Origin: Candidatus Aenigmatarchaeota archaeon
GTDB taxonomy: Archaea > Aenigmatarchaeota > Aenigmatarchaeia > PWEA01
DNA length: 64,000 nt
Direction: 5' to 3'
NCBI GenBank assembly: GCA_046539305.1
Contig: JBKHHE010000002.1
Span: 35,928-99,927, forward strand
The notes beneath the pieces were generated by a model. It ran no database searches. It was not told the origin of the DNA and was given only the letters and a program-made list of their open reading frames with translations. Each line of letters begins with the position of its first letter. The first letter of the stretch is position 1. The translations under genes and the position numbers were made by a program. This document shows positions 33,013 through 61,545 of this stretch, piece by piece.

Positions 33013-33050
33013 ACTAACAAATGACGTGGTCCTTGACCACGTCCTCTGCC

Positions 33051-33191
33051 GGGCCCGTAGCTCAGTCTGGGAGAGCACTGGGCTTTTAAGAACACTTTGG
33101 AAAAACGTTCATGGAAAAATATTTTGATGGACCTTTTTCGAAAAGGTTCTAAGACACCCAGGAGTCGCGGGTTCAAATCCCGTCGGGCCCA
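33051..33191 (+). tRNA. tRNA-Lys (anticodon TTT) with about a 67-nt intron at 37/38
   Basis: GGGCCCG-TA-GCTC-AGTCTGGGA-GAGC-A-CTGGG-CTTTTA[intron]A-CCCAG-GAGTC-GCGGG-TTCAAAT-CCCGT-CGGGCCC-A. Confidence 0.75.
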
Positions 33192-33338
33192 TTTAAGACT
33201 TTGTGTTTGTAAACATTCATATGGTAAAATCGACGAAAGATTTGGATGAAACCTTTGGGAAGAAGAATCTTCCCAATACTTGGAACTCGGTTCCAATATT
33301 TTCTAAAGGTTTCTTCCTGGATCCCGTCGGGCCCATAA
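33192..33338 (+). repeat. 147-bp element directly 3' of tRNA-Lys(TTT), ending in a 16-bp direct repeat of the tRNA 3' end (ATCCCGTCGGGCCCAT); identical to copy 2 at 41209-41355
   Basis: Exact sequence identity of the two copies; internal 9-bp hairpin TTGGGAAGA-AGA-ATCTTCCCAA and palindrome GGAACTCGGTTCC. Confidence 0.8.
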
Positions 33339-33460
33339 GAACCTCAAAGCCATTAGACACCGAAACACTTATAAACGTTAACATATAATAGACAACACCA
33401 GTCTTGGAAACTTTCTTGAAAGCAGAGGGTATGTAGTTTTGTTTAAAAGTTGGGGAGAAA

Positions 33461-41086: not shown

Positions 41087-41208
41087 GGGCCTGTAGCTCA
41101 GTCTGGGAGAGCGCTAGGCTCTTAACTTTTAAGAGCGCGTAATGGGACCGGTCGGTCCTTATGACGAAAGAAACCTAGAAGTCGCGGGTTCAAATCCCGT
41201 CGGGCCCA
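41087..41208 (+). tRNA. tRNA-Lys (anticodon CTT) with about a 48-nt intron at 37/38
   Basis: GGGCCTG-TA-GCTC-AGTCTGGGA-GAGC-G-CTAGG-CTCTTA[intron]A-CCTAG-AAGTC-GCGGG-TTCAAAT-CCCGT-CGGGCCC-A. Confidence 0.75.
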
Positions 41209-41355
41209 TTTAAGACTTTGTGTTTGTAAACATTCATATGGTAAAATCGACGAAAGATTTGGATGAAACCTTTGGGAAGAAGAATCTTCCCAATACTTGG
41301 AACTCGGTTCCAATATTTTCTAAAGGTTTCTTCCTGGATCCCGTCGGGCCCATAA
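41209..41355 (+). repeat. Second identical copy of the 147-bp tRNA-Lys-associated element with the 16-bp terminal direct repeat
   Basis: Identical to 33192-33338 over its full length; flanking sequence diverges immediately after ...GGGCCCATAA. Confidence 0.8.
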
Positions 41356-58232: not shown

Positions 58233-58346
58233 ATGGACCCGGCGGGATTTGAACCCGCGGTCTCCACCATGCCAAGGTGGCGTCTTTTCGTTGGAACCTT
58301 TTGATGAATCTTTTTGGAAAAGATTCCTTCCACTAGACTACGGGCC
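58233..58346 (-). tRNA. tRNA-Ala (anticodon GGC) with about a 38-nt insertion in the D-loop
   Basis: Reverse complement gives GGGCCCG-TA-GTCT-AGTGG[insertion]AGAC-G-CCACC-TTGGCAT-GGTGG-AGACC-GCGGG-TTCAAAT-CCCGC-CGGGTCC-A. Confidence 0.7.
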
Positions 58347-61241: not shown

Positions 61242-61330
61242 GGAACGGGACCGCCGGGATTGACGGAGGAAGCTTTCCAAAACCTTCAATTCAAATATTC
61301 TTTTTCATGAATGTTTAAAAAAGATTCTGA

Positions 61331-61545
61331 TGGGACCGCCGGGATTCGAACCCGAGATCTCCGGCTTCCATGCCGCGCACGACGGAATTTACCGAAAGCG
61401 AAGCTTTCGTAAAACACGAAAACCCGCGTTTTCGGCGATTTACGCGCGGTGGCCTTATAAGACCGGCGCTTTGGTCAAGTCTTTCCCTTTTTGATGAACC
61501 TTTTTTCGAAAAAGGTTCTTTCTAACCAAGCTAAGCCACGGTCCC
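61331..61545 (-). tRNA. tRNA with two large insertions (about 50 nt in the D-loop, about 89 nt at 37/38); the anticodon reads TAT, so a candidate tRNA-Ile(UAU)
   Basis: Reverse complement gives GGGACCG-TG-GCTT-AGCTTGGTT[insertion]-AAGC-G-CCGGT-CTTATA[intron]A-GCCGG-AGATC-TCGGG-TTCGAAT-CCCGG-CGGTCCC-A. Confidence 0.5.

What the first reader, a model, noticed from the sequence alone, without database searches (positions are those of the whole stretch)
33177..33338. A 147-bp element with a 16-bp terminal direct repeat of the tRNA 3' end follows tRNA-Lys(UUU); an identical copy follows tRNA-Lys(CUU)
- Downstream of both tRNA-Lys genes (33051-33191 and 41087-41208) lies a perfectly identical 147-bp sequence.
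- Each copy ends with ATCCCGTCGGGCCCAT, a 16-bp duplicate of the last 16 nt of the tRNA; the flanking DNA diverges immediately after.
- This is the footprint of site-specific integration into a tRNA 3' end (att-site duplication). Only about 130 bp of cargo lies between the repeats, so it is either a non-autonomous MITE-like element or the scar of an excised or decayed integrative element that targeted both Lys isoacceptors.
- The two Lys tRNAs share an identical T-arm and acceptor 3' half.
- The cargo contains a perfect 9-bp hairpin (TTGGGAAGA-AGA-ATCTTCCCAA) and the palindrome GGAACTCGGTTCC, so it could also encode a small RNA.
Basis: seen in the sequence. Interest (0 to 1): 0.75.

Follow-up and report, generated by a model that had tools for sequence, protein, structure and literature searches.

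The report
Tiny insertions duplicating tRNA 3' ends

Summary
tRNA-Lys(UUU) and tRNA-Lys(CUU) are each followed by the same 128-nt non-coding cargo plus a second copy of ATCCCGTCGGGCCCAT (period 144 nt). The two loci are identical over 176 nt.

- **It is an insertion.** Ten distinct related Aenigmatarchaeota lineages are empty at the UUU site and seven at the CUU site, with collinear flanks.
- **There is a third copy.** A shorter, related element (70-nt cargo, 15-nt repeat) follows tRNA-Ile(UAU) at 61246-61346 (-). It is also absent from relatives and is flanked by that tRNA's own 3' end.
- **The layout recurs elsewhere.** The same layout, with unrelated cargo sequences, occurs in a Woesearchaeota chromosome (3 tandem 114-nt units) and in two other archaeal contigs. 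The E. coli tyrT RtT repeats are a bacterial analogue.
- **Negative results.** The element has no terminal inverted repeats, no bulge-helix-bulge splice motif, no ORF and no Rfam match. No recombinase was found among 20 window ORFs. No parent element was found in any collection.

The duplicated block always starts in the T-loop, while its right border varies. My best reading is a miniature non-autonomous integrative element, essentially an att site alone, moved in trans by a tRNA-targeting integrase. A casposase-like target duplication, an inert scar and an RtT-like trailer RNA remain open.

The parts
33051..33191 (+). tRNA-Lys(UUU) gene with a 67-nt canonical intron (about 33089-33155). It remains complete despite the insertion.
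   Evidence: Rfam tRNA 56.6 bits; ARAGORN -i Lys(ttt) i(39,67); the bulge-helix-bulge control found this intron.
33177..33192 (+). Proximal copy of the 16-nt direct repeat ATCCCGTCGGGCCCAT (tRNA positions 59-73 plus 1 nt).
33193..33320 (+). 128-nt non-coding cargo of the Lys element. It holds the left-end motif TAAACATTCAT (33210-33220), the outer stem 33248-33256 / 33305-33313, and hairpins at 33255-33276 and 33280-33296. Position 33297 is T here and G in both copies of strain L001.
33321..33336 (+). Distal copy of the 16-nt repeat. It is followed by the ancestral flank and the rpoH promoter.
41087..41208 (+). tRNA-Lys(CUU) gene with intron.
41194..41353 (+). Second, identical Lys element: proximal repeat 41194-41209, cargo 41210-41337, distal repeat 41338-41353.
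61331..61545 (-). tRNA-Ile(UAU) gene with a D-loop intron and an anticodon-loop intron.
   Evidence: After removing both introns, ARAGORN calls Ile(tat). Orthologues are present in L179, L181 and L183.
61246..61346 (-). Third, shorter element of the same family: proximal repeat AATCCCGGCGGTCCC at 61332-61346 (tRNA positions 58-72), 70 nt between the repeat copies at 61262-61331 (tRNA A73 at 61331 plus about 69 nt of cargo), and distal repeat at 61247-61261, followed by G at 61246 where the tRNA has A73.
   Evidence: It is absent from relatives.

Best explanation
**What it is.** These are members of a small family of miniature, protein-less insertion elements that target the T-loop-to-3'-end segment of tRNA genes in this Aenigmatarchaeota (DPANN) genome.

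**How it sits in the genome (shown).**
- Each element lies between two copies of the tRNA's last 15-16 nt.
- The proximal copy completes the tRNA gene, so the host loses nothing.
- The distal copy is joined to the ancestral downstream flank.
- The insertions are lineage-specific and occur at three tRNA genes in 64 kb.
- The two Lys copies are identical, and the Ile copy is a diverged, shorter relative.

**How it moves (inferred).** The element is essentially an att site with its arms and nothing else. It enters by site-specific recombination between its own tRNA-like core and the tRNA gene, with crossover in or next to the T-loop. The catalyst would be a tRNA-targeting tyrosine-type integrase supplied in trans by an element or gene outside this window. 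The perfect palindromes in the cargo would then be protein-binding or terminator sites. The two Lys copies stay identical through re-mobilisation or gene conversion between the 176-nt repeats. Whether the trailer is also released as a stable RNA, as for E. coli RtT, remains open.
For: - **Clean 144-bp insertion.** Ten distinct relatives are empty at Lys-UUU and seven at Lys-CUU (alignments; closest relative L094). The distal copy lies 125 nt from the rpoH ATG. In relatives the single copy lies about 125-140 nt from it.
- **Third copy at tRNA-Ile.** It is absent in L179, L181 and L183.
- **Lys and Ile cargos are related.** Global alignment scores 36.7 against 16.2 +/- 6.1 for shuffles, reached by 2 of 2000. 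The 11-mer TAAACATTCAT occurs in the window only at these three places, 15-19 nt after a tRNA end.
- **Border pattern.** In all five independent archaeal cases, and in E. coli tyrT, the duplicated block starts in the T-loop (positions 56-59). Its right border varies (72, 72, 74, 78, 90). That is the pattern of a T-loop att identity block.
- **T-loop remnants.** In L114 and L062 the distal copy keeps TTC, then 2-3 extra nt, then RAAT, like an imperfect T-arm in an attP core.
- **Retargeting is documented.** A T-loop integrase can be retargeted to another tRNA by changing only the attP core (Ms6, PMC1762012). This would explain related elements carrying Lys-specific and Ile-specific repeats.
- **Tandem units.** The tandem units in L062 fit repeated integration or unequal exchange.
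- **Real in several assemblies**.
Against: - No integrase, excisionase, transposase or Cas1 was found among 20 window ORFs or next to the other cases.
- No parent element or attP junction was found in viral, genome, metagenome, phage or plasmid collections.
- A circular intermediate of 85-144 bp is very small for double-stranded recombination.
- The three window copies have repeats of nearly constant length (16, 16, 15). Each matches its own target, which a staggered-cut target duplication explains more simply.
- Sequence to the left of the distal copy in the Lys element does not resemble a T-stem.
- The Lys/Ile cargo relationship is modest, and nhmmer does not link them.
Confidence: 0.45

Rival explanations
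1. Target-site duplication. The cargo alone (about 70-128 bp) is the element. It is pasted into tRNA 3' ends by an enzyme that makes cuts staggered by about 15 bp next to the T-loop, as casposases (Cas1 homologues) do, and gap repair creates the direct repeat.
For: - Repeats of 16, 16 and 15 nt in the window and 16 nt in L062 are each identical to the local tRNA rather than to a fixed element-borne sequence.
- The A. boonei casposase makes a 15-bp duplication abutting the T-loop-encoding part of tRNA-Pro and can insert short duplexes (PMC5137440).
- A linear fragment of about 100 bp is a more plausible intermediate than a circle of that size.
Against: - There are no terminal inverted repeats in the Lys or L062 cargo; the alignment of left end to reverse-complemented right end is no better than shuffles.
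- L114 and L053 have 23-bp and 33-bp repeats.
- The L114 distal copy extends into T-loop-like sequence with an indel, which a clean duplication would not give.
- No Cas1 or PolB is present in the window.
- The casposon duplication overlaps the tRNA by only 5 bp, whereas here it lies almost wholly inside the tRNA.
Confidence: 0.17
2. Inert scar. A large integrated virus or plasmid once sat at a tRNA-Lys gene and lost everything but its two ends. The remnant was then copied to the other Lys gene by gene conversion. It is neither mobile nor functional.
For: - tRNA 3'-end fragments left by integrated elements are common in archaeal genomes (PMC9897764).
- The two Lys loci share 30 nt of tRNA upstream of the insert.
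- In strain L001 both copies carry the same T-to-G change at 33297/41314, which is consistent with gene conversion.
Against: - A third, related remnant of similar size at a different tRNA (Ile), with that tRNA's own repeat, would need a second independent near-total deletion.
- The same 70-130-nt size class with two perfect hairpins recurs in L062 (as three tandem units) and in L114.
- Homology to the right of the insert is only the 16-nt repeat, which is poor for conversion.
- The concerted SNP could also be an assembly collapse of a 176-nt repeat.
Confidence: 0.15
3. RtT-like trailer RNA. The unit is kept because the tRNA read-through transcript is processed into a stable structured small RNA whose 3' end mimics the tRNA 3' end, as with the E. 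coli tyrT RtT RNA. This is compatible with any of the insertion mechanisms.
For: - In E. coli K-12 the tyrT-tyrV locus carries four units (one between tyrT and tyrV, three after tyrV). Each ends with the last 19 nt of tRNA-Tyr, starting at position 58, the same left border as here. They are a curated Rfam family (RF00391) and an annotated sRNA, rttR.
- The Lys unit folds much better than shuffles (z = -4.2).
- There is no strong T-run between the tRNA and the cargo, whereas T-runs follow the distal copy at the CUU locus and in L062.
Against: - There is no match to RtT or any Rfam family even at E <= 10.
- The unit is absent from all relatives, so there is no conserved function in the clade.
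- Pairing between the cargo and the distal repeat is no better than chance in the window; 692 of 1000 shuffles are as good.
- No expression data are available.
Confidence: 0.13
4. Non-canonical tRNA intron or split-tRNA piece. The proximal 3' end plus the cargo is spliced out of the T-loop, so the distal copy becomes the real tRNA 3' end.
For: - This genome's tRNAs carry many introns, including in the D-loop.
- Any splice register inside the repeat would restore the tRNA.
Against: - No register gives a bulge-helix-bulge motif. The best candidates have a 4-bp central helix but flanking helices of 0-1 bp in the window and 2 bp in L062. The same scan recovers the canonical Lys(UUU) intron.
- The proximal copy already completes the tRNA.
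- In the Ile element the distal copy has G where all relatives have the discriminator A73.
Confidence: 0.02

Closest known systems
tRNA-targeting integrative elements with a T-loop att site (for example mycobacteriophage Ms6 and P4-like integrases), and their gene-less derivatives such as CIMEs (cis-mobilizable elements; the CIME comparison rests on my own knowledge)
   Same: - The direct repeat is the tRNA's 3' part, so the gene is regenerated.
- The left border of the identity block lies in the T-loop.
- The insertion is absent from relatives, and isoacceptors that share the core are both hit.
- Specificity can be switched by changing the core alone (PMC1762012).
   Different: - There is no integrase in the element or in the window.
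- The cargo is only 70-128 bp with no ORF.
- Identity starts at positions 57-59 rather than covering the whole T-arm.
- No parent element is known.
E. coli tyrT/tyrV distal 178-bp repeats (RtT RNA, Rfam RF00391; rttR/tpr)
   Same: - A tRNA gene is followed by non-coding units that each end with a copy of the tRNA's 3' end starting at position 58.
- Units occur in tandem, as in L062.
- The cargo is structured.
   Different: - It is bacterial, with unrelated sequence and no covariance-model match.
- The repeat includes the encoded CCA (19 nt).
- The E. coli unit is known to be released as an RNA (my own knowledge); nothing is known here.
Casposons and mini-casposons (Cas1-type integrase)
   Same: - The direct repeat is about 15 bp and lies at a tRNA 3' end next to the T-loop-encoding sequence.
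- Repeated insertion at the regenerated target is possible (PMC5137440).
   Different: - Casposons have terminal inverted repeats and encode Cas1 and PolB; none of these is present here.
- The casposon duplication overlaps the tRNA by only 5 bp.
Classical MITEs
   Same: They are short, non-coding, multi-copy and non-autonomous, and are flanked by a direct repeat.
   Different: - There are no terminal inverted repeats.
- The repeat is 15-16 bp rather than 2-10 bp.
- The target specificity for tRNA 3' ends is strict.

Membership tests
tRNA-integrating element (integrase/att type) | attL and attR share an identity block made of the tRNA's 3' portion | tested here: met
   There are 16-nt exact repeats at both Lys genes and a 15-nt repeat at Ile.
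tRNA-integrating element (integrase/att type) | The identity block begins in the T-loop or anticodon loop, and its right border lies at or beyond the tRNA end | tested here: met
   The left border lies at positions 56-59 in five archaeal cases. The right border lies at 72-90.
tRNA-integrating element (integrase/att type) | The insertion is absent from the orthologous site in relatives | tested here: met
   Empty sites: 10 at Lys-UUU, 7 at Lys-CUU and 3 at Ile.
tRNA-integrating element (integrase/att type) | An integrase gene lies inside the element | tested here: not met
   The cargo is 128 nt or 70 nt with no ORF. The element is at best a non-autonomous derivative.
tRNA-integrating element (integrase/att type) | A cognate integrase exists elsewhere in the genome, or a parent element has the same ends | tested here: inconclusive
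   None was found among 20 window ORFs. No match was found in the viral, genome, metagenome, phage or plasmid collections. Only 64 kb of the genome was available.
Classical MITE / DDE transposon derivative | Terminal inverted repeats | tested here: not met
   Left end against reverse-complemented right end scores 10.0 against 10.8 +/- 1.7 for shuffles. The L062 element gives the same result.
Casposon / mini-casposon | A target-site duplication of about 15 bp next to a tRNA T-loop | tested here: inconclusive
   Repeats of 15-16 nt fit, but they lie inside the tRNA. L114 and L053 have 23 and 33 nt (PMC5137440).
Casposon / mini-casposon | Terminal inverted repeats; Cas1 and PolB in autonomous copies | tested here: not met
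   No TIRs. No Cas1 or PolB in the window ORFs scanned.
RtT RNA (Rfam RF00391) | Match to the family covariance model | tested here: not met
   No RtT hit at E <= 10 in 33030-33400. The same tool finds all four E. coli units at 133-138 bits.
RtT RNA (Rfam RF00391) | The unit lies downstream of a tRNA gene and ends with a copy of the tRNA 3' end from about position 58 | tested here: met
Archaeal tRNA intron (bulge-helix-bulge) | An hBHBh' motif at the exon-intron borders | tested here: not met
   All 23 registers were scanned and none has both flanking helices. The control intron was recovered.

The most novel reading that the evidence does not exclude
These are representatives of an undescribed class of miniature mobile elements that home to the T-loop/3' end of tRNA genes, with no inverted repeats and no genes of their own. 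They would be widespread in DPANN and other archaea, sometimes amplified in tandem, and sometimes carrying a single gene, as in L053. The E. coli RtT repeats would be the long-known but unexplained bacterial counterpart. They would move by a mechanism not yet characterised, either a Cas1-like 15-bp staggered insertion of short DNA or trans-mobilised att-only minicircles. They might also yield tRNA-punctuated small RNAs.
Probability: 0.25. Interest if true: 0.75.

Novelty: new variant of a known kind. Interest (0 to 1): 0.55.

Why it matters
tRNA 3'-end fragments are usually read as scars of large viruses or plasmids. Here the complete insert is 70-130 bp of non-coding, hairpin-rich DNA. It recurs at three tRNA genes in one small genome and, with other sequences, in distant archaea.

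If these inserts are active, they are the smallest known tRNA-targeting mobile elements. They would point to a trans-acting recombinase in genome-reduced DPANN archaea. They would also give an evolutionary explanation for the E. coli tyrT repeats, and a natural example of how a site-specific target is regenerated and re-used, which is the logic shared with casposons and CRISPR arrays.

On the practical side, the inserts create 176-nt exact repeats flanking the RNA polymerase operon. These repeats break short-read assemblies and can mislead tRNA annotation.

Tried and rejected
- **Default ARAGORN** missed the intron-containing Lys genes. Rfam and ARAGORN -i were used instead.
- **Exact-pattern scans for the cargo.** The left end, right end and hairpin found nothing in viral contigs. 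The left end found nothing in genome contigs.
- **tRNA-Lys 3' end in viral contigs:** nothing.
- **Two-copy pattern** TCCCGTCGRRCCCA-N{110,140}-ATCCCGTCGRRCCCA in metagenomes: nothing.
- **Cargo pieces or the repeat from the L053, L062 and L114 elements** in viral contigs: nothing.
- **blastn against phages and plasmids:** nothing.
- **Rfam** at gathering threshold and at E <= 10: only the tRNA.
- **nhmmer** of four cargos against all 2 Mb of held loci found only self hits.
- **Splicing** was rejected by the bulge-helix-bulge scan.
- **Decayed tandem tRNA-Lys duplicate** (period 144 against a 141-nt gene plus 3) was rejected. Ungapped identity is 39/126, and local similarity to the tRNA and intron is marginal (22 of 500 shuffles as good).
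- **A tRNA-like acceptor stem** formed by the cargo and the distal repeat is not better than chance in the window, though it is in L062 (10 of 1000 shuffles).
- **Terminal inverted repeats:** none.
- **Extending the contig beyond the window** failed. Only short Logan contigs were returned, and the first ORF is not on record.

Full report
**Setting.** The window comes from a Candidatus Aenigmatarchaeota (DPANN) metagenome-assembled genome. Its RpoH is identical to a protein NCBI names from that phylum, and GCA_046545755.1 (L001) is 99.914% identical over 18.5 kb. The two tRNA-Lys genes bracket the rpoH-rpoB-rpoA-nusA operon, and this arrangement is conserved in all relatives.

Rfam and intron-aware ARAGORN identify tRNA-Lys(UUU) at 33051-33191 and tRNA-Lys(CUU) at 41087-41208, both with canonical introns. 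ATCCCGTCGGGCCCA occurs exactly four times: at the end of each gene and again 144 nt downstream. At up to 2 mismatches there are 6 matches against 0.17 expected. The loci are identical from 33163 to 33338 (176 nt). This stretch starts inside the tRNA and ends 2 nt after the distal repeat. The 128-nt cargo (33193-33320) has two perfect hairpins inside a 9-bp stem and folds at z = -4.2. It has no ORF and no Rfam match.

**It is an insertion.**
- I recovered the orthologous loci of relatives (RpoH 72-83% identical) through exact-protein look-ups and two collection scans.
- Ten distinct lineages have a single 3' end at Lys-UUU and seven at Lys-CUU.
- In the closest relative (L094) the flank after the tRNA is collinear with the window's flank after the distal copy, and the distance to the rpoH TATA box is 32 nt against 33 nt.
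- Logan unitigs from three runs begin with 30 nt spanning the cargo end and the distal repeat and run into the UUU flank. L001 carries both inserts, so this is not a mis-assembly.

**Concerted change between strains.** L001 differs from the window at 16 of 18,529 positions. Two of those are the same T-to-G change in both element copies (33297 and 41314). This means either gene conversion or re-mobilisation, or a collapse of the repeat by the assembler.

- **tRNA-Ile(UAU) in this window (minus strand).**
  - The gene has two introns, and ARAGORN calls Ile(tat) once they are removed.
  - It ends at 61331. It is followed by about 69 nt of cargo and a second copy of AATCCCGGCGGTCCC at 61247-61261.
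  - Relatives L179, L181 and L183 have the tRNA but no second copy.
  - Its cargo is related to the Lys cargo: the alignment is reached by 2 of 2000 shuffles.
  - The 11-mer TAAACATTCAT occurs in the window only in these three elements, 15-19 nt after the tRNA end.
- **L062, a Woesearchaeota chromosome.** A tRNA is followed by three tandem 114-nt units, each ending in GAATCCCGGCAGGGGC.
- **L114.** A tRNA-Tyr carries a 116-nt unit whose cargo holds 11-bp and 7-bp perfect hairpins.
- **L053.** A 1-kb single-gene (methyltransferase) insert is flanked by 33-bp repeats made of the tRNA end plus its terminator.
- These other cargos are unrelated in sequence to the window's.

**What it is not.**
- **Not a spliced intron.** No register gives a bulge-helix-bulge motif, while the same scan recovers the canonical intron.
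- **Not a decayed tandem tRNA copy**.
- **Not a classical MITE or casposon.** There are no terminal inverted repeats.
- **Not RtT.** The covariance model does not hit the window, although it finds all four E. coli units.
- **Not clearly a tRNA-like minihelix.** Pairing of the cargo with the distal repeat is at chance level here.
- **No recombinase nearby.** No integrase, transposase or Cas1 is encoded among 20 window ORFs or beside the other cases; L062 has only a Bro-N protein next door.
- **No parent element found** in any collection.

**Mechanism.**
- **For an integrase/att mechanism.** In every case the duplicated block starts in the T-loop (positions 56-59), while the right border varies from position 72 to 17 nt past the tRNA. 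L114 and L062 keep a T-loop remnant (TTC, then 2-3 nt, then RAAT) to the left of the block. This is the anatomy of a T-loop att identity block, as for Ms6. In Ms6 the core must match the tRNA, and changing the core alone retargets the same integrase to another tRNA (PMC1762012). That would account for related Lys-specific and Ile-specific elements.
- **My reading.** I therefore favour an att-only, non-autonomous satellite mobilised in trans (confidence about 0.45).
- **For a staggered-cut mechanism.** The near-constant 15-16-nt repeats that match each local target, and the very small size, are better explained by a staggered-cut insertion. The 15-bp duplication made by the A. boonei casposase next to the tRNA-Pro T-loop is the nearest precedent (PMC5137440). 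I keep this at about 0.17.
- **Inert scar.** A scar spread by gene conversion (0.15) is weakened by the independent Ile copy and by the recurring size class.
- **RtT-like RNA.** verify that the E. coli tyrT-tyrV locus carries four units (three of them after tyrV), each ending with tRNA-Tyr positions 58-76, the same left border as here. This makes an RtT-like processed RNA a live possibility that is compatible with the other models (0.13).

**Verdict.** The feature is real and recently inserted, and it belongs to a small family. I rate it as a new variant of known kinds (tRNA-targeting integrative elements and RtT-type tRNA-distal repeats), of moderate to good interest.

Noticed in passing
window 61246-61545 (-): tRNA-Ile(UAU) has a D-loop intron and an anticodon-loop intron, and default tools miss or mis-call it. 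It carries a third, shorter 3'-end-duplicating insertion. The distal repeat copy has G where the tRNA, and all relatives, have the discriminator A73.
   Followed up: yes
L062 7873-8378 (-) (Woesearchaeota chromosome OY970338.1): An intron-containing tRNA (ARAGORN: Gly-CCC) is followed by three tandem 114-nt units, each ending with a copy of tRNA positions 57-72. The last copy is followed by a T-rich terminator and a convergent Bro-N domain gene. In this element the cargo does pair with the repeat better than chance.
   Followed up: partly
L114 3055-3247 (+); L053 34-1081 (+): L114: tRNA-Tyr(GUA) carries a 116-nt unit whose distal copy retains GGTTC-CC-AAAT. L053: a 1-kb insert holding a single SAM-methyltransferase gene is flanked by 33-bp repeats made of the tRNA 3' end plus its terminator, like a gene cassette at a tRNA.
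   Followed up: partly
window 33297 and 41314, compared with L001 9837 and 17854: Both element copies are T in the window and G in a strain that is 99.9% identical. This means either concerted evolution between repeats 8 kb apart that flank the essential RNA polymerase operon, or an assembly collapse.
   Followed up: partly
L005 9876-9895, L008 9873-9890, L011, L014, L034, L097-L100 (downstream of tRNA-Lys UUU): A conserved motif TCGWCRATAGTCTA lies between tRNA-Lys(UUU) and the rpoH TATA box in nine relatives. It is missing in the window and in L094. It may be a regulatory or termination signal.
   Followed up: no
window 33129-33149 (+), 61496-61518 (-), 58300-58330 (-): Introns of different tRNAs share a hairpin of the type GRACCTTTTTCGAAAAGGTTC. 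The two D-loop introns also share the following CATCAAAARGG. This suggests related, possibly mobile, intron sequences. The Lys cargo's outer stem (GAAACCTTT...AAAGGTTTC) is of the same flavour, though the similarity is marginal (22 of 500 shuffles as good).
   Followed up: partly
window tRNA genes (9646, 29539, 32989, 48129, 49498 vs 33171, 41188, 58254, 60611, 61351): Some tRNA genes encode the CCA end and others do not. All three insertion-bearing genes belong to the group without CCA and share the 3' consensus ATCCCGKCGGKCCCA.
   Followed up: no
L185 (E. coli K-12 1286709-1287622): The tyrT-tyrV locus contains four RtT units (one between the two tRNA genes, three after tyrV). Each ends with the last 19 nt of tRNA-Tyr, starting at position 58, the same left border as in the archaeal elements.
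   Followed up: yes
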